Positions 3,813 to 54,527 of a stretch of 64,000 bases of DNA are shown here, piece after piece; positions within the stretch are counted from its first letter, which is position 1, and every line of letters begins with the position of its first letter. Below the pieces are notes generated by a model. The model saw nothing but the letters and a program-made list of their open reading frames with translations, was not told the DNA's origin and searched no databases. The stretch is from a virus. The position numbers and the translations under genes were made by a program. The stretch lies in the IMG/VR virus record IMGVR_UViG_3300034111_001103, positions 32,001-96,000 of that record. One strand, given 5' to 3'.

Positions 3813-4454
3813 ATGAATACTTACACTAAATATTGCCCAAATGTATGGGTTGCAAAATGCACACAAAAACATCAAAAAGATGATATAATTATATTAACAA
3901 CAAAATATGGTAAAGAAAATGAGTGTTATGTGCATAATCTTTTATTTGAAAAAGATGGTTTTTTTTATTATTCAATTACTAGAGTAGATGGTTTAAACTC
4001 TCAAGAAAGAGCAAAACAAAAAGCAAAAAAATTACAAAATTGGGCTAATAATGCAGAAAAAAGAAGTACATCATATTGGGAAGCATCACAAGAAGGCAAA
4101 GATTTTTTAGTATTAGCTGAACCTATAAAAATAGGACATCACAGCGAAAAAAAACATAGGTCTTTAATCGAACGTAACCATAATCGAATGAAAAAGTGTG
4201 TAGAAGAAAGTAATAAGTCAAAAGAATACGAATCAAGAGCAGAATATTGGGCAAAACTCGAAAATAAAATAGATTTATCAATGCCAGAAAGTTTAGAATA
4301 TTTAGAATATAAACTAGAAAATGCTATCGAAAAACACGCAGAATATAAAAATGGCAAACGTAATCAAGAGCATTCTTTTTCAATTACTTACGCAAAAAAA
4401 GAAGTAAATGAATTAACAAAGAAACTTGAAATAGCTAAAAAACTTTGGTTATAA
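3813..4454 (+). CDS. DUF3560-like protein
   Basis: EPIKIGHHSEKKHR motif, recalled as typical of this family. Confidence 0.65.
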   Translation: MNTYTKYCPNVWVAKCTQKHQKDDIIILTTKYGKENECYVHNLLFEKDGFFYYSITRVDGLNSQERAKQKAKKLQNWANNAEKRSTSYWEASQEGKDFLVLAEPIKIGHHSEKKHRSLIERNHNRMKKCVEESNKSKEYESRAEYWAKLENKIDLSMPESLEYLEYKLENAIEKHAEYKNGKRNQEHSFSITYAKKEVNELTKKLEIAKKLWL

Positions 4455-5009
4455 ATTTTAATAATTAAATAAAATTAATTATATTTGCATTAAAATAAAA
4501 TTACAATGATAAGAAAAGAATTAAGTAAACTAGACAAACAAAAATTAGCAATATTTGTTCACATGAGGAATAAATTAAAGCTAGGTAATACTTTAAAACG
4601 TAAAGGTATAAGCATCTACAAACAAAATCAAATAGTTGAAACTGGATTGTGTGATGATATAGAATTAAATATTATTAATGATGTGTGGGAAACTGTACAA
4701 CATCCAGAAGGAGTAGAATAATGAATAAGTTTGTACAAATCGAGTATGATGCAGTCGAGGAATTGCTTACATACTACCTAAATACAGAGGATAGTGAACA
4801 AGAAAGTTTCTATATAAGTAAACAAGAAATTATCTATGAACTTGGATATGAGCAAAGAAATGGATTTGATGAAATTGAGTTTACGGATGGTTCAGTAATT
4901 GATAAATTCAATGGTGAACACTCACAAGATGAATGTTGGCAGATACTATCTGAATATGAGCCTACTGATGAAGAATTATATAAAATAATCGAAATAAAAC
5001 ACTAAACAA

Positions 5010-20214: not shown

Positions 20215-21912
20215 TTAGTAAGGAGCAGACAATTCAAATAAGATTGATTTTGTAGGATCTTTCAACCAGATATTAGATTGATTTTCCATGATAGTTGTAG
20301 AACCATCAAATCTACTTGAAGCTACATTACCTCTACCTGCTGAAGGAGCATATGGAGATGTTCTACCTGCAATATAAGTTACTTTAGTACCTGGCATTCC
20401 TGCATTTCTTACTAAGTAAATATTTGCTCCAGTATCTACACCTTTAGCCCATTCTACTTGAGAAGTTACTTGAGCAGCATTTGTTGATGCTGAGTCTGTA
20501 ACATCAAATATAGCAGAAGTGTAAGAATGTTTAGGGAAACCTCCAATATAAGGTTCATCTTCAGTTCTTGAGAACTGTGAATCAAATGCTGGGTTATGTT
20601 CTATTTCAAGAGTACCTAAACCAGAGATGAATACAGATTGCATTCTATAACCAGAAGATAATTGAGATATACCATTTATTTCACCTACTTTTTTAACTAT
20701 ACCAAGATCAGCTGCTTGTAATACTGCACCAGCTTGATTAGCTGTTCTATTTAATTCTTCATTAAAGATTCTTTGAAGTTCATTAACTGCACCTCTACCA
20801 CCTTGTAATTTGAATTTTCTCATATAATCAGGAATGTCTGGTCTGTTTCTGAAAACTTGTCCAAATACATTCATTAAAGCTTGTTTAGAGTATCTAGGGA
20901 TTTTAGCCCAGTTACCTCTTTTCATTTGTTGGTATAAACCTTCACCTATGATTTGAGATTTGTTTCTAGCACCTTGTATAACACCTCCTTTTGCCCACAT
21001 AAGATCTCTTTCTTCATCTAACATTAATTGTTTCATGATAAGAGCATCAGCCATAGACATCCAAGAAGCTGTACCAGGTTTAATACCTTGCATACCATCA
21101 GTACCTAATTTACCATTACCTTCACCAATAACCATATAGAAATTAGGGTCATTTGGATTTAAAAGGTTAGAGTTACCTCCTACAAAGTCTACAGGAGTAG
21201 TACCATTATTTTTATTGAATTGTAGATTCAATCTTTGAGCATTACCTGTGATAGTATACTCAACACCTCTTCTACCTCCCAATTGATGTTTTAATTTCAT
21301 CATACCAAAAGAGTTCTCAATACCTGCAAAGTTTTCTGTGAATTCTCCACCTGTACCTGAAATTCTAAAGTATTGTGTACCTACAGATAAATATTTTTTA
21401 TCAAAGTATTCATCTCTATTGTTAGTTACTAGTCTTACTTTGTAAATAAAACCTTGACCACTTTGAGCAGATGCTACATCCACAATGTAAAGATTTTGTC
21501 CATCTCTGAAGTCTGGAGTAATTCTTGTTCCAATTTGGAAAGTTGGTTCTAGATTACCATCACCTAAACAGATTTCAAATAATTGACCATCTTGACCTGG
21601 TTTAGCTATATCAGTACTCATTTCCTCTTTTACAGTAACACCATCTAATTGGTAAGGCATGTTGAAAGTTAATTCTCCATCATCTCCATTTAAATAGATA
21701 GTATTTTTTTGTAATTCTGTCATTGACAATAATGGTGTAGAGATAAGAGACCATTGATTCCATGCTGAGAGAACTCCCATATGAGTAGATCTAATATCAT
21801 CTCCAAACATCTTTAATAAGTTGTTTGAGTCTGTAAAAACTCCAGACATTCTATAATCTGCTTTTTTTACTACTAAGTTATTGCCAAAATTCTGAAAAGT
21901 AGGTGTTGCCAT
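20215..21912 (-). CDS. Major capsid protein (crAss-like)
   Basis: 565 aa; order terminase-portal-acidic protein-MCP; GEGLYQQ, HNPAFD and C-terminal WLKDPT motifs. Confidence 0.85.
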   Translation of the reverse strand: MATPTFQNFGNNLVVKKADYRMSGVFTDSNNLLKMFGDDIRSTHMGVLSAWNQWSLISTPLLSMTELQKNTIYLNGDDGELTFNMPYQLDGVTVKEEMSTDIAKPGQDGQLFEICLGDGNLEPTFQIGTRITPDFRDGQNLYIVDVASAQSGQGFIYKVRLVTNNRDEYFDKKYLSVGTQYFRISGTGGEFTENFAGIENSFGMMKLKHQLGGRRGVEYTITGNAQRLNLQFNKNNGTTPVDFVGGNSNLLNPNDPNFYMVIGEGNGKLGTDGMQGIKPGTASWMSMADALIMKQLMLDEERDLMWAKGGVIQGARNKSQIIGEGLYQQMKRGNWAKIPRYSKQALMNVFGQVFRNRPDIPDYMRKFKLQGGRGAVNELQRIFNEELNRTANQAGAVLQAADLGIVKKVGEINGISQLSSGYRMQSVFISGLGTLEIEHNPAFDSQFSRTEDEPYIGGFPKHSYTSAIFDVTDSASTNAAQVTSQVEWAKGVDTGANIYLVRNAGMPGTKVTYIAGRTSPYAPSAGRGNVASSRFDGSTTIMENQSNIWLKDPTKSILFELSAPY

Positions 21913-51743: not shown

Positions 51744-52328
51744 ATGACACAAAAAATTAGTAGAGTTAATCTCAAAGTCATCTATGACAATGTTTGTCAA
51801 GATTGGAAAAATATAATAACTGATATGTTATTATGGAATGTAGAAAGTTCTATAGAAATAGAAGAAGAAACTATCTTAAAAGGATATAATCAAGCAAATT
51901 CTGAACAAAAAATATTATTAGAAAAATACTTTAAAATAAACACACCTAAAGACTTAACAAAAACATTAAAAACTTGGAAAGATGTGTTAAAATATGCTAA
52001 AGAAAAAGGATATAACTTTAAGTTACCTTATTCTGAAAAAACTCAAGTAAAAGAAGAAATATCTTTAAATGCTTTATGTAAAATACATTTATTAGCTAAA
52101 GTATTTAATGAAGATTGGACAGCAAATTTTAAAGACTCAACTCAATACAAATATTATCCTTGGTTTGAAAGAAAAAGTTCTGGGTGGGTCTTTAGTGTTG
52201 TTTATTATCGGGCTTCTGTTTCTTCTAGTGGCTGGGGTGCTCTTTCATACTTTAAAAGTTCAGAAATAGTAAATTATATCGGTAACAATAAAGAATTTGT
52301 AAATATTTATAATGAATATTTACAATAA
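51744..52328 (+). CDS. DGR target protein 1 (VR1 at 52178-52249)
   Basis: QYKYYPWF precedes VR1, which differs from TR1 only at adenines plus one 3-nt insertion. Confidence 0.9.
   Translation: MTQKISRVNLKVIYDNVCQDWKNIITDMLLWNVESSIEIEEETILKGYNQANSEQKILLEKYFKINTPKDLTKTLKTWKDVLKYAKEKGYNFKLPYSEKTQVKEEISLNALCKIHLLAKVFNEDWTANFKDSTQYKYYPWFERKSSGWVFSVVYYRASVSSSGWGALSYFKSSEIVNYIGNNKEFVNIYNEYLQ
52178..52249 (+). repeat. DGR variable repeat VR1
   Basis: 18 substitutions versus TR1, all at TR adenines. Confidence 0.9.
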
Positions 52329-52511
52329 AGTTAATTATTTTATATTATTCTAGGTAGGTCTTTAATGATGTTAATTATCAGAATTCTAATTCTAATAGCT
52401 AGAGTACTCTAACATATTTTGTATTTAAAGAAATAATTAACTTATCCTATAGGATAAAAATCAAGAAATATTTTAAAAAGTGTTTGGTAGGTCTATTCTC
52501 GAAGAACATTT
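52328..52511 (+). ncRNA. DGR RNA 1: TR1 (52348-52416) plus structured flanks
   Basis: AAT-rich copy of VR1 enclosed by a 13-bp inverted repeat and followed by two hairpins. Confidence 0.85.
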
Positions 52512-52519
52512 AAATTAAT

Positions 52520-53470
52520 ATGAAAAGAATAGGAAATTTATACAATCAAATATGTGATAGAAATAATATAGAATTAGCTATAAAAAATTCACAAAAAAGT
52601 AAGAAGAAAAATAAGAATGTTATAGAATTTAACAAAAATTATGAAAATAATTTAGAAATTTTAATAAATTTACTAAAAGAAGAAAAATATGTTATTTCAG
52701 ACTATAAAATAAAATATATTAAAGATGGAAATAAAATAAGGGAGTTAAAGATACTCCCTTATTTTCCAGATAGAATTATACAACATTGTATATTAAATAT
52801 AATATCTTTTACGTTATTAAAAACTTTTCCTACTAATACTTATTCAGCAATTAAAAATAGAGGTATACATAAGTGTTTGTACAAGTTAAAAAGTATAATA
52901 AATAAGTATGACTATTGTTTAAAACTGGATATTAAAAAATATTATGAAAATATAGATAATGACATATTAAAATCTTTTCTTTTAAAAAAATTTAAAGATA
53001 AACAATTATTAGATTTACTTTTTCATATAATAGACAAAGAAAAGGGATGTGTAATTGGCTCTTATTTGTCACAATGGTTTGGTAATTTTTATTTATCTTA
53101 TTTTATACACTATTTAAATGATAAAAAAGATATTAAAGTTTTAGTTTATATGGATGATATTGTTATATTAGGTAATAGTAAACAATTATTGTATGATTTA
53201 AAGTTAGAAATAATAGAATATTTAAGAACTAAACTAAAGTTAGAATTAAGTAATCATCAAGTATTTTCTCTTACACAAGGTATAGATTTTTTAGGCTACA
53301 AAACATTTAAAACACACATTTTAATAAGGAAAAGAATAAAATTAAATTTTATTAAAATGATTAAAACAAATTATAATGAAAAGTCAATTAATAGTTATTT
53401 AGGTTGGCTTTGCCACGGAAATACATTAAATTTACAACAAAAATACATTAAAAATGCAAAAAACAATTAA
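52520..53470 (+). CDS. DGR reverse transcriptase
   Basis: PDRIIQH, LKLDIKKYY, GCVIGSYLSQ (DGR-type SQ), YMDD, GIDFLGY, SYLGW. Confidence 0.95.
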   Translation: MKRIGNLYNQICDRNNIELAIKNSQKSKKKNKNVIEFNKNYENNLEILINLLKEEKYVISDYKIKYIKDGNKIRELKILPYFPDRIIQHCILNIISFTLLKTFPTNTYSAIKNRGIHKCLYKLKSIINKYDYCLKLDIKKYYENIDNDILKSFLLKKFKDKQLLDLLFHIIDKEKGCVIGSYLSQWFGNFYLSYFIHYLNDKKDIKVLVYMDDIVILGNSKQLLYDLKLEIIEYLRTKLKLELSNHQVFSLTQGIDFLGYKTFKTHILIRKRIKLNFIKMIKTNYNEKSINSYLGWLCHGNTLNLQQKYIKNAKNN

Positions 53471-53948
53471 TTTAACAAAAAAAGAAGCTATTAAATTTTA
53501 TAATAGTGCACAAGATCAAGGATTTAAAGATTTATTAGAAACAAATTTTGGTAAAGATTTCTGGAAACAAGAAATTACAGATTTAGTATATGATTTAGAT
53601 TCTTTAAAAGAATATTGTAAAAATAACAATATATCTTTTTCTTTACCTTATCTTTGTGATACTCAAGATAGTTTAGAAAAAACATTAAATGCTACTTACA
53701 TATTAGCAAAAGTTGCTAAAATATATAATAAAGGAACTATTTTAAATTGGAAAAACAATAATGAATACAAGTATTTACCTTATTTATATTTTTCTGGTGG
53801 TTCTGGGGTTGCTGCTGGTGTTTCTTTTTATTGGGATTCTGATTTGTTTGCTTCTTATTGTTTGTACTATAAAAACTCAAATTTAAGCACAAAATCTTAT
53901 AATAACTTTAAAAAATATTGGGAAGATTATTGGGGAGTAGAACAATAA
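53454..53948 (+). CDS. DGR target protein 2 (VR2 at 53790-53868), paralogue of target 1
   Basis: EYKYLPYL precedes VR2, which matches TR2 except at adenines. Confidence 0.9.
   Translation: MQKTINLTKKEAIKFYNSAQDQGFKDLLETNFGKDFWKQEITDLVYDLDSLKEYCKNNNISFSLPYLCDTQDSLEKTLNATYILAKVAKIYNKGTILNWKNNNEYKYLPYLYFSGGSGVAAGVSFYWDSDLFASYCLYYKNSNLSTKSYNNFKKYWEDYWGVEQ
53790..53868 (+). repeat. DGR variable repeat VR2
   Basis: 18 A-specific substitutions, 1 C>T and one 3-nt insertion versus TR2. Confidence 0.9.
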
Positions 53949-53958
53949 TATAAAAAAG

Positions 53959-54151
53959 AGATAAATAAATATTTTCTAGTAGTTCTAGGGTTACTAATGA
54001 TTCTAATAATTGGAATTCTAATTTGAATACTCCTAATTGTTTAAACTTAATTATAATACAAACAATTTTATTTATCTTAACCTATTGGTTAAAAAAACAA
54101 GCAAAATCTTAAAACAAATCCCTTAGTACCTTTAGTGTGGAAAAGGGATTT
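53959..54151 (+). ncRNA. DGR RNA 2: TR2 (53972-54047) plus structured flanks
   Basis: AAT-rich copy of VR2 enclosed by an 11-bp inverted repeat, followed by the same two hairpins as TR1. Confidence 0.85.
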
Positions 54152-54527
54152 TTTAATTAAGTACAAAAATATAAAGTAAAATATGGAATTACCAATATTA
54201 ATACCTACAATATATGTAGATACTCCAGAACATAAAAAAACTATTCAATATGGGAAATATTTAGTAGTAAGAAAAGATGGTAAAACTCACTTAGAAACAT
54301 TTAATGGAACTGGATGGGCTTATAATCATAATACTATTATAGCTTATTATTTACCTAAAATTAATTAAAAATGAATTATTTAGATACATTAAAACAAAAA
54401 AAATCAATAGATACAGAGTATGAAACTCAAAAAGAGTTATTATTACAACAAATAACTAACATAAATACTCTATATAGTAAATATAATGGAGATTTTTTAA
54501 AAGAATTAAGTCAATTTACTAAAGATT

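What the first reader, a model, noticed from the sequence alone, without database searches (positions are those of the whole stretch)
51744..54151. DGR with one RT and two independent template-target pairs, and no avd
Seen: the order is target1(VR1)-TR1-RT-target2(VR2)-TR2. VR1 (52178-52249) matches TR1 (52348-52416) with 18 of 18 substitutions at adenines. VR2 (53790-53868) matches TR2 (53972-54047) with 18 of 19 at adenines. TR1 and TR2 are related but differ at many non-A positions, so each VR tracks only its own TR. There is no room for an avd-like gene and no GC-rich IMH is visible. Established: multi-target DGRs usually use one TR for several VRs. Inference: a target+TR cassette duplicated and diverged into an RT-less satellite unit served by the shared RT, giving two separately programmed libraries.
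Basis: partly seen in the sequence, partly recalled or inferred. Interest (0 to 1): 0.9.

Follow-up and report, generated by a model that had tools for sequence, protein, structure and literature searches.

The report
Phage DGR with two template modules
One reverse transcriptase in a complete 169-kb uncultured phage rewrites two different small genes from two separate RNA templates, each with its own scaffold; the system is real, varies in nature and is conserved in a group of related phages, but it is a variant of a known mechanism, not a new kind.

Summary
VR1/TR1 differ at 17 sites, all template adenines (P about 2e-11). VR2/TR2 differ at 19 sites, 18 at adenines (P about 5e-12). The complete genome has one RT, no further VR and no Avd homologue.

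- Both pairs vary in nature. Near-identical contigs differ by 15-16 of 72 nt in VR1 with TR1 invariant. In a sister lineage two contigs differ at 4 of 5,938 nt, all in VR2 at TR2 adenines.
- Each TR sits in its own full RNA scaffold: a 5'/3' clamp duplex of 11-13 bp, a short hairpin plus A-run, and a second hairpin. Covariation supports this across about 40 related loci. It resembles the Bordetella phage DGR RNA without the Avd-binding stem-loop.
- The two-template layout recurs in at least eight lineage groups of a wider phage DGR family. Most members use one TR for 2-3 targets.
- The duplication looks ancient, and module order around the RT varies.
- In this lineage unit 2 looks much slower than unit 1.

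Multi-TR and Avd-less DGRs are already in the literature, so this is a new variant of a known kind. This scan earlier noted a different multi-TR design in another genome.

The parts
51744..52328 (+). Target gene T1 (194 aa, beta-type small helical target)
   Evidence: ORF; paralogue of T2; phrog_11581, function unknown; 16 homologues that vary only in the VR among close relatives
52178..52249 (+). VR1 (72 nt; contains a 3-nt in-frame insertion relative to TR1)
   Evidence: 17 of 17 mismatches to TR1 at adenines; alleles of 72, 69 and 66 nt in near-identical contigs, all compatible with TR1
52328..52340 (+). 5' clamp strand of template unit 1
   Evidence: 13-bp perfect duplex with 52431-52443; 1 of 200 shuffles as long; same position in relatives with different sequences
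52348..52416 (+). TR1 (69 nt, non-coding; in the VR frame it has two TAG stops at the conserved Trp codons)
   Evidence: 0 of 69 differences among close relatives whose VR1 differs at 15-16 sites
52431..52443 (+). 3' clamp strand of unit 1, abutting hairpin 1
   Evidence: cis pairing 13 bp against 6-7 bp for cross-unit pairing
52444..52455 (+). Hairpin 1 of unit 1 (ATCC-TATA-GGAT), followed by an A-run
   Evidence: RNAalifold: 4 pairs, all with compensatory changes, none broken in 15 sequences
52478..52511 (+). Hairpin 2 of unit 1 (stem around a conserved GGTA...GAAG loop)
   Evidence: Alignment A4 and RNAalifold; covariance model R1 hit 52435-52523, 67.9 bits
52520..53470 (+). DGR-type reverse transcriptase (316 aa), the only RT in the genome
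   Evidence: RVT_1 E 1e-14; phrog_1423 E 8.5e-90; best solved relative 8ub7_A, E 3e-25; closest GenBank RTs are in crAss-like phage DGR cassettes; YMDD and IGSYLSQ motifs read from the sequence; single copy
53454..53948 (+). Target gene T2 (164 aa, alpha-type small helical target; overlaps the RT stop by 17 nt)
   Evidence: ORF; 34 homologues; AF2 model pLDDT 84 with the VR in a low-confidence loop, no solved fold match
53790..53868 (+). VR2 (79 nt; contains a 3-nt in-frame insertion relative to TR2)
   Evidence: 18 of 19 mismatches at adenines; identical on at least 19 contigs of this lineage; differs from the L004 allele
53959..53969 (+). 5' clamp strand of template unit 2
   Evidence: 11-bp perfect duplex with 54067-54077
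53972..54047 (+). TR2 (76 nt, non-coding)
   Evidence: two private substitutions relative to close relatives
54067..54077 (+). 3' clamp strand of unit 2, abutting hairpin 1
54078..54091 (+). Hairpin 1 of unit 2 (TAACC-TATT-GGTTA), followed by an A-run
   Evidence: compensatory relative to unit 1
54116..54155 (+). Hairpin 2 of unit 2 (9-bp stem AAATCCCTT/AAGGGATTT around TAGTACC...TGGAA) plus a T-run
   Evidence: R1 hit 54070-54170, 71.5 bits; not called a terminator by the simple scan

Best explanation
This is an Avd-less diversity-generating retroelement of the crAss-like-phage RT lineage, built from one RT gene and two self-contained target-plus-template modules. Each module has a small helical target gene whose C-terminal loop is the VR. 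After the gene comes a non-coding DGR RNA: a 5' clamp strand, the TR, a 14-19-nt linker, a 3' clamp strand, a short hairpin with an A-run, and a second hairpin. Inferred mechanism: the single RT binds either scaffold in trans and copies that TR into adenine-mutagenised cDNA. Copying would stop at the clamp, as at the 'cPRT Stop' of the Bordetella phage DGR. The cDNA then replaces only the VR that is homologous to it. Because TR1 and TR2 differ at many non-adenine positions, the two libraries stay separate. Shown here: the anatomy, the single RT, the adenine-restricted natural variation of both VRs, and the scaffold covariation. Inferred: RT-scaffold binding, priming and stop sites, and the absence of any protein cofactor. 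In this lineage unit 1 turns over much faster than unit 2.
For: - A-specific TR/VR mismatches: P 1.7e-11 and 4.7e-12.
- One RT and no extra VR in a complete genome.
- VR1 activity: 15-16 of 72 differences against 0 of 69 in TR1 and 3 of 513 in the rest of T1. At least 7 VR1 alleles sit on otherwise identical C-termini. All VR1 alleles fit TR1 at non-A sites.
- VR2 activity: L011 and L025 differ at 4 of 5,938 nt, all in VR2 at TR2 adenines. Three T2 alleles differ only in the VR.
- Scaffold: 15 TR-downstream regions align, and 7 of 9 predicted pairs show compensatory changes.
- Model R1 gives only two strong hits in the 169-kb genome, both in its training set. It gives 29 hits in 57 held-out loci, all immediately 3' of the TR. 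It also hits gut crAss-like DGRs just upstream of the RT.
- Clamp duplexes of 10-14 bp, with unrelated sequences, are found in 12 of 33 units tested, 10 of them among the 16 units of two-TR loci. They are cis-specific: 10-14 bp against 6-8 bp for cross-unit pairing.
- The design matches the upstream:Sp duplex, short stem-loop, unpaired adenosines and RT-binding stem-loop described for BPP-1 (bioRxiv 10.1101/2023.10.23.563531).
- The two-TR layout is conserved in the window clade, L027/L030, L032/33, L038, L044, L054 and L028.
- Each two-TR locus has exactly one target in a monophyletic beta clade, SH-like support 0.91.
Against: - In this lineage VR2 is identical on at least 19 contigs, even where VR1 differs.
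- TR2 carries two private substitutions, one of which makes the non-A mismatch.
- Both VRs carry 3-nt insertions relative to their TRs. A simple full-length copy would not produce these.
- No biochemical data exist for any Avd-less RT of this lineage.
- A structurally Avd-like small ORF, or a host factor, was not excluded by fold.
- Contig consensus sequences hide within-population variation.
- The RT tree is a quick tree, because the careful search did not finish.
Confidence: 0.85

Rival explanations
1. Unit 2 (TR2/VR2) is dormant or decaying in this particular phage lineage. Only unit 1 is still being rewritten, and the two-template layout here is partly a fossil.
For: The same VR2 (P0017) is on at least 19 contigs from many samples, while the T1 cluster holds at least 7 VR1 alleles. 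TR2 has two private substitutions against 0 of 69 in TR1. VR2 keeps a 3-nt insertion. Related genomes show repeated DGR decay: L007/8 have a truncated RT and no TR2, L009 has the RT deleted, and L012 keeps T1 only.
Against: The Sp2 scaffold is intact and is the better of the two strong model hits in the genome (71.5 bits). Its clamp is an 11-bp perfect duplex. VR2 differs from the L004 allele essentially at TR2 adenines. VR2 is demonstrably variable in the L011/L025 sister lineage. T2 is intact.
Confidence: 0.25
2. The element is not cofactor-free. An unrecognised accessory protein is needed for reverse transcription: a fold-level Avd analogue among the small flanking ORFs, a protein encoded elsewhere in the genome, or a host factor.
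For: In BPP-1, cDNA synthesis needs Avd. In 47 of 65 related loci a conserved ~100-aa gene sits right after the RT: phrog_19665, with weak matches to OB-fold domains. This shows that the family can carry an accessory gene. The small ORFs flanking the window's cassette were not folded.
Against: The genome has no PF05635 match and no homologue of the OB-like protein. ORF clustering found no gene other than targets and RT shared between the window and other loci. The TR-to-clamp linker is only 14-19 nt, so it has no room for the Avd-binding stem-loop that lies there in BPP-1. Most crAss-type DGRs are reported without Avd (PMC12386605).
Confidence: 0.3
3. TR2 is copied by a different RT, from a co-infecting phage or from the host, rather than by the RT at 52520-53470.
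For: None directly. TR2 is not adjacent to the 5' end of the RT gene.
Against: The complete genome has one RT. Sp1 and Sp2 share one scaffold family. T2 overlaps the RT stop codon by 17 nt, so the two are probably co-transcribed. The two-module layout is inherited together with the RT across diverged lineages.
Confidence: 0.03
4. The repeats are chance matches in AT-rich, low-complexity DNA.
For: The region is about 22% GC, and many weak AT-rich repeats are listed.
Against: Hypergeometric P is about 1e-11 for each pair. The pairs are conserved in relatives, and natural variation is confined to the VRs.
Confidence: 0.01

Closest known systems
Bordetella phage BPP-1 DGR (mtd-avd-TR-brt)
   Same: RT of the same superfamily: the best solved match is the 328-aa 'Reverse transcriptase' 8ub7_A (E 3e-25), and Bordetella phage records are among the tblastn matches. 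Mutagenesis is adenine-specific and runs from TR to VR, with the VR at the 3' end of the target ORF. The RNA design is similar: a duplex between sequence upstream of the TR and the spacer, then a short stem-loop, then adenosines, then a further stem-loop (one search compared).
   Different: There is no avd and no room for an Avd-binding stem-loop. There are two TR-RNA modules instead of one. No GC-rich IMH is seen. The targets are 164-194-aa helical proteins with no detectable C-type lectin fold and lie outside the tail module.
DGRs of gut crAss-like phages (for example Buchavirus cr52_1 and cr60_1)
   Same: These carry the closest GenBank RTs (38-44% identity). Their order is target-TR-RT with no annotated avd. 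The same spacer scaffold is detectable just upstream of the RT with model R1 (E 2e-4 and 2e-3).
   Different: One TR is expected between the target and the RT (not scanned here). The one target is an approximately 410-aa Mtd/sulfatase-like tail protein in the structural module.
Zeta crAss-like phages Lera and ct1yV3 with three TR-VR pairs (PMC12386605)
   Same: One RT is reported with several TR-VR pairs in a large crAss-like phage genome.
   Different: Those two phages do carry AVD genes and their targets are tail-fibre proteins. Pairs 2 and 3 have many non-A substitutions and were judged possibly inactive. No per-template RNA scaffold or population evidence was reported.
Multi-TR DGRs in automated surveys (MetaCSST, PMC6642488)
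   Same: The paper states that most (216) of its 271 multi-VR DGRs have only one TR, so a minority (about 55) carry more than one. One example is Stenotrophomonas sp. SKA14, with two TRs and six VRs.
   Different: These are survey calls, with no analysis of whether each TR is a complete template RNA, whether the pairs are independent, or whether both are active.
Single-TR members of the same phage DGR family (IMG/VR loci L035-L105)
   Same: They share homologous RTs (41-52% identity), homologous small targets and the same TR-adjacent scaffold.
   Different: One TR serves 2-3 targets, either tandem (V-V-TR-RT) or flanking (V-TR-RT-V in L036, L089, L099). Most also carry the ~100-aa gene after the RT that weakly matches OB folds; two-TR loci lack it.

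Membership tests
Diversity-generating retroelement (DGR) | RT of the DGR type | tested here: met
   RVT_1; phrog_1423 E 8.5e-90; best solved relative 8ub7_A at E 3e-25, ahead of group II and retron RTs; the nearest GenBank RTs sit in crAss-like phage target-TR-RT cassettes. The IGSYLSQ motif (the DGR-typical [ILV]GxxxSQ, from my own knowledge) and YMDD are read from the sequence. That 8ub7 is the Bordetella bRT was not verified here.
Diversity-generating retroelement (DGR) | TR/VR repeat pair whose differences fall at template adenines | tested here: met
   17 of 17 and 18 of 19 mismatches at adenines; P 1.7e-11 and 4.7e-12
Diversity-generating retroelement (DGR) | VR inside the 3' part of a protein-coding gene; TR non-coding and invariant | tested here: met
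   The VRs lie at codons 145-169 of 194 and 113-139 of 164. TR1 has in-frame TAG stops. TR1 is 0 of 69 different in relatives with different VR1. TR2 shows 1-3 differences.
Diversity-generating retroelement (DGR) | Natural variation confined to the VR at adenine-templated sites | tested here: met
   VR1. VR2: 4 of 4 substitutions in 5,938 nt.
Diversity-generating retroelement (DGR) | Avd accessory protein (present in the prototype and many DGRs, not universal) | tested here: not met
   No PF05635 match in the whole genome at E <= 10. There is no ORF space between TR and RT. No conserved accessory gene is shared with other two-TR loci. A fold-level analogue was not excluded.
Diversity-generating retroelement (DGR) | GC-rich IMH at the 3' end of the VR, with IMH* in the TR | tested here: inconclusive
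   No (G/C)-run comparable to BPP-1 is visible at either VR end. An AT-rich functional equivalent cannot be recognised from sequence alone.
Diversity-generating retroelement (DGR) | Target with a C-type lectin or Ig-like variable fold | tested here: inconclusive
   The AF2 model of T2 (pLDDT 84) is mainly helical with the VR in a low-confidence loop. Foldseek PDB gave nothing at E <= 0.001. The best VIA-align hit had Z 4.7. BFVD matches only uncharacterised phage proteins.
BPP-1-type DGR RNA architecture (cPRT Stop plus RT-binding stem-loop) | Duplex between sequence upstream of the TR and the spacer, followed by a short stem-loop and adenosines, then a further stem-loop | tested here: met
   The clamps are 13 and 11 bp and directly abut hairpin 1. 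Clamps of 10-14 bp with unrelated sequences are found in 12 of 33 units tested, 10 of them among the 16 units of two-TR loci. The hairpins are supported by compensatory changes. Function as a stop or binding site is inferred.
BPP-1-type DGR RNA architecture (cPRT Stop plus RT-binding stem-loop) | Avd-binding stem-loop immediately 3' of the TR | tested here: not met
   The TR-to-clamp linker is only 14 nt in unit 1 and 19 nt in unit 2 and holds no stem.

The most novel reading that the evidence does not exclude
Target-TR-scaffold modules are autonomous, portable cassettes that an Avd-independent RT serves in trans, so a phage can add or reshuffle separately programmed libraries. Here the libraries diversify small, non-structural helical proteins of an undescribed fold. 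These proteins are encoded among replication and accessory genes, next to anti-defence homologues such as Gad1 in relatives. That would point to DGR-driven variation of intracellular binders, for example counter-defence proteins, rather than receptor-binding tail proteins.
Probability: 0.15. Interest if true: 0.8.

Novelty: new variant of a known kind. Interest (0 to 1): 0.55.

Why it matters
It is a natural, population-supported case in which one DGR reverse transcriptase serves two complete and mutually incompatible template RNAs, each with its own covarying scaffold. This supports the idea that the RT acts in trans on modular template cassettes. It defines a compact, Avd-less RNA scaffold of about 100 nt that could be tested and used for multiplexed targeted mutagenesis. 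It also adds a widespread family of small phage proteins of unknown fold to the list of DGR targets.

Tried and rejected
- The RT search in the 5.8-billion-protein collection timed out. RT relatives were taken from IMG/VR, assemblies and GenBank phages instead.
- No second RT was found, and no further VR for either TR in the genome.
- The genome has no Avd (PF05635) and no homologue of the OB-like accessory protein.
- T2 fold: Foldseek PDB, VIA-align wide and BFVD gave no informative match. T1 was not folded.
- The accessory protein's Foldseek matches to OB folds are weak (E >= 0.01).
- The promoter and terminator scans were uninformative. Promoter-like sites were at the shuffle level, and hairpin 2 of unit 2 was not called a terminator.
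- A possible extension of TR2 homology upstream into the clamp strand (53962-53971) rests on A-compatible matches in AT-rich sequence with one non-A mismatch. I left it out of TR2.
- The first regex used to locate hairpin 1 missed many loci. A position-free duplex search replaced it.
- The careful RT tree did not finish, so the quick tree was used. The target tree is FastTree only.
- No TR2 was found in L007/8 even with relaxed alignment.
Full report
**Observation.** The window is bases 32001-96000 of a complete 168,934-bp viral record with direct terminal repeats. The gene order is T1 (51744-52328), TR1, RT (52520-53470), T2 (53454-53948), TR2, all on the + strand.
- VR1 (52178-52249) aligns to TR1 (52348-52416) with 17 mismatches, all at TR adenines (23 A in 69 nt; P = 1.7e-11).
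- VR2 (53790-53868) aligns to TR2 (53972-54047) with 19 mismatches, 18 at adenines (P = 4.7e-12).
- Cross pairs (VR1/TR2, VR2/TR1) show 16-21 non-adenine mismatches plus gaps, so each VR follows only its own TR.
- The RT is the only reverse transcriptase in the genome, both by protein search and by the RVT_1 profile.
- A scan tolerant of adenine changes finds no other VR in the genome.
- No Avd (PF05635) match exists at E <= 10.

**What the RT is.** It matches RVT_1 and phrog_1423 at E 8.5e-90. Its best solved relative is the 328-aa 'Reverse transcriptase' 8ub7_A (E 3e-25), ahead of group II intron and retron RTs. I did not verify that this entry is the Bordetella bRT. In GenBank phages the closest RTs (38-44% identity) belong to crAss-like phages. 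There they sit in cassettes of Mtd-like tail protein, TR and RT, with no annotated avd. The sequence shows YMDD and IGSYLSQ; the latter fits the DGR-typical [ILV]GxxxSQ motif, which I know from memory. The putative capsid protein (20215-21912, minus strand) has only distant cultured relatives: Leptolyngbya phage Lbo-JY46 at 32% and the 145-kb Cellulophaga phages phi4:1 and phi17:2 at 28%. A gut phage, csAssE-Sib, matches at 25%. My data are compatible with a distant crAss-like assignment but do not establish it.

**Are both pairs active?** Sixteen T1 homologues and 34 T2 homologues were found. In both families, variation among close relatives is concentrated in the VR.
- *VR1.* Contigs L004-6 and L018 differ from the window at 15-16 of 72 VR1 positions. 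They differ at 0 of 69 TR1 positions and 3 of 513 positions in the rest of T1. VR1 alleles of 72, 69 and 66 nt all fit TR1 at non-adenine positions. The protein collection holds at least 7 VR1 alleles on otherwise identical C-termini.
- *VR2.* The sister-lineage contigs L011 and L025 align over 5,938 nt with four substitutions. All four lie in VR2 at TR2 adenines. Three T2 alleles in that lineage differ only in the VR.
- *This lineage.* The same VR2 is found on at least 19 contigs, including one with a different VR1. The window's TR2 has two private substitutions, and one of them creates the single non-A mismatch. So unit 1 turns over much faster than unit 2 here. Dormancy of unit 2 in this lineage cannot be excluded.

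**Each TR is a complete template RNA.** Downstream of every TR in two-TR loci lies the same element. It has a short hairpin (NNCC-TATW-GGNN) followed by an A-run. About 25 nt further on is a second hairpin around a conserved TAGTA...TGGAA loop, and then an AAGTAA motif.
- RNAalifold on 15 such regions predicts 9 pairs, 7 of them with compensatory double changes. The four pairs of hairpin 1 are never broken.
- A covariance model built from these regions gives only two strong hits in the whole genome. They are Sp1 (52435-52523, 67.9 bits) and Sp2 (54070-54170, 71.5 bits), and both were in the training set.
- In 57 held-out loci the model gives 29 hits at E < 0.01, every one immediately 3' of the TR.
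- It also hits just upstream of the RT in gut crAss-like phages.
- The sequence just 5' of each TR forms a perfect duplex with the sequence directly abutting hairpin 1. In unit 1 this is 52328-52340 with 52431-52443 (13 bp). In unit 2 it is 53959-53969 with 54067-54077 (11 bp).
- Clamps of 10-14 bp with unrelated sequences occur at the same position in L011, L032, L038, L044, L054, L014 and L003. That is 12 of 33 units tested, 10 of them among the 16 units of two-TR loci; in most of the 12, 0-2 of 200 shuffles reached the observed length (range 0-8).
- Cis pairs reach 10-14 bp, whereas cross-unit pairs stay at the 6-8 bp background.
- This is the layout described for the Bordetella phage DGR RNA: an upstream:spacer duplex, a short stem-loop, unpaired adenosines (together the 'cPRT Stop'), and then an RT-binding stem-loop (bioRxiv 10.1101/2023.10.23.563531).
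- The Avd-binding stem-loop of BPP-1 has no counterpart. The TR-to-clamp linker is only 14-19 nt, which fits the absence of avd.

**Family context.** The small targets belong to phrog_11581, of unknown function. They are DGR targets in about 70 IMG/VR loci.
- The dominant layout is V-V(-V)-TR-RT, with one TR for 2-3 tandem targets.
- L036, L089 and L099 have V-TR-RT-V with one TR.
- The two-TR layout V1-TR1-RT-V2-TR2 occurs in the window clade (including L004-6, L011 and L025), L027/L030, L032/33, L038 and L044.
- L054 has both modules upstream of the RT. L028 has two modules and no RT within the stretch held.
- In the quick RT tree the two-TR loci lie outside the large single-TR clade.
- In a FastTree of targets, each two-TR locus contributes exactly one target to a monophyletic 'beta' clade (support 0.91). 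Its other target falls in the grade shared with single-TR loci.
- The window's T1 is the beta type and T2 the alpha type. In L030, L038 and L044 the order is reversed.
- The second module therefore probably arose once, long ago, and modules have moved relative to the RT. The two targets of a locus are only 25-32% identical, which explains why they need separate templates.

**Decay in relatives.** L007/8 have an N-terminally truncated RT, an inserted 101-aa ORF, and neither Sp1 nor TR2. L009 has lost the RT but keeps TR1, TR2 and Sp2. L012/13 keep only T1 and a scaffold remnant.

**Accessory gene.** In 47 of 65 loci, mostly single-TR, a conserved ~100-aa ORF (phrog_19665) follows the RT. Its model is beta-rich (pLDDT 84), and the weak Foldseek matches are to OB-fold domains. 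All two-TR loci lack it, and the window's genome has no homologue.

**Targets.** The AF2 model of T2 (pLDDT 84) is mainly helical, with the VR in a low-confidence loop (residues 116-129). No solved fold was matched, only uncharacterised phage proteins in BFVD. The cassette lies downstream of a primase-like gene and an AAA_24 gene and next to a transglycosylase-like gene, among small unknown ORFs. In relatives the neighbours include Gad1, RlaP and GmrSD-N homologues. The function of the targets remains unknown.

**Novelty.** A minority of the multi-VR DGRs in a MetaCSST survey (about 55 of 271, inferred from the paper's statement that 216 have one TR) have more than one TR (PMC6642488). Zeta crAss-like phages Lera and ct1yV3 were reported with three TR-VR pairs, and most zeta crAss DGRs lack Avd (PMC12386605). 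New here are four things: evidence that each TR is a self-contained scaffolded RNA module; population evidence for activity of both pairs; the ancient, reshuffled two-module design; and the target family. I rate this a new variant of a known kind, interest 0.55.

Noticed in passing
L049:6018-6314, L035:6421-6729, L003:5601-5894 and 44 other loci: A conserved ~100-aa gene (phrog_19665, unknown function) sits immediately after the RT in 47 of 65 related DGR loci. Its AF2 model is beta-rich (pLDDT 84) and its Foldseek matches to OB-fold domains (Teb1, RPA, HIN, SSB) are weak. It is absent from every two-TR locus and from the window's whole genome. It may be a non-Avd DGR accessory protein.
   Followed up: partly
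window 52178-52249 and 53790-53868; L004, L018: The VRs change length in frame. VR1 alleles are 72, 69 and 66 nt against a 69-nt TR1, and the window's VR2 is 79 nt against a 76-nt TR2. The inserted triplets look like A-mutagenised duplications of neighbouring TR triplets, which suggests slippage during cDNA synthesis or integration.
   Followed up: partly
window 52352-52357 and 52400-52405 (TR1): Read in the VR frame, TR1 has TAG stop codons at both conserved Trp codons of VR1 (TGG in nearly all alleles, TTG in one relative). An unmutated copy would therefore truncate T1, and only A-mutated copies can survive.
   Followed up: partly
L007/L008, L009/L010, L012/L013: The cassette has decayed repeatedly in close relatives. 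In L007/8 the RT is N-terminally truncated, a 101-aa ORF is inserted and TR2 is lost. In L009/10 the RT is deleted but both TRs are kept. In L012/13 only T1 and a scaffold remnant are left.
   Followed up: partly
window 53989 and 54033 (TR2): The window's TR2 has two private substitutions (A to G and T to C) relative to relatives that carry the identical T2 and VR2, while TR1 is invariant in the same set.
   Followed up: partly
L014:4588-4660 with VRs at 4434-4506 and 1123-1194: In a relative with 50% T1 identity, one TR matches two VRs 3.3 kb apart, both in beta-type targets. The contig ends inside the RT, so a second template module cannot be assessed.
   Followed up: no
L007:7333-8310, L012:4726-5115: Homologues of the anti-Gabija protein Gad1 (PF25705) lie directly downstream of the DGR cassette in relatives. 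RlaP, nucleoside deoxyribosyltransferase and GmrSD-N genes are also nearby, so the cassette sits in an accessory or counter-defence region.
   Followed up: no
L111:2919-3012, L113:2918-3004 (Buchavirus cr52_1, cr60_1): The covariance model built from the freshwater loci also finds the spacer scaffold just upstream of the RT in human-gut crAss-like phage DGRs. The scaffold may therefore be general to this Avd-less RT lineage.
   Followed up: partly
window 52297-52325: An 11-bp perfect inverted repeat (TTGTAAATATT / AATATTTACAA, 7-nt loop) lies at the very 3' end of T1, just before the 5' clamp strand. No counterpart was seen after VR2. Its role, whether a DGR target hairpin, a terminator or chance, is unknown.
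   Followed up: no
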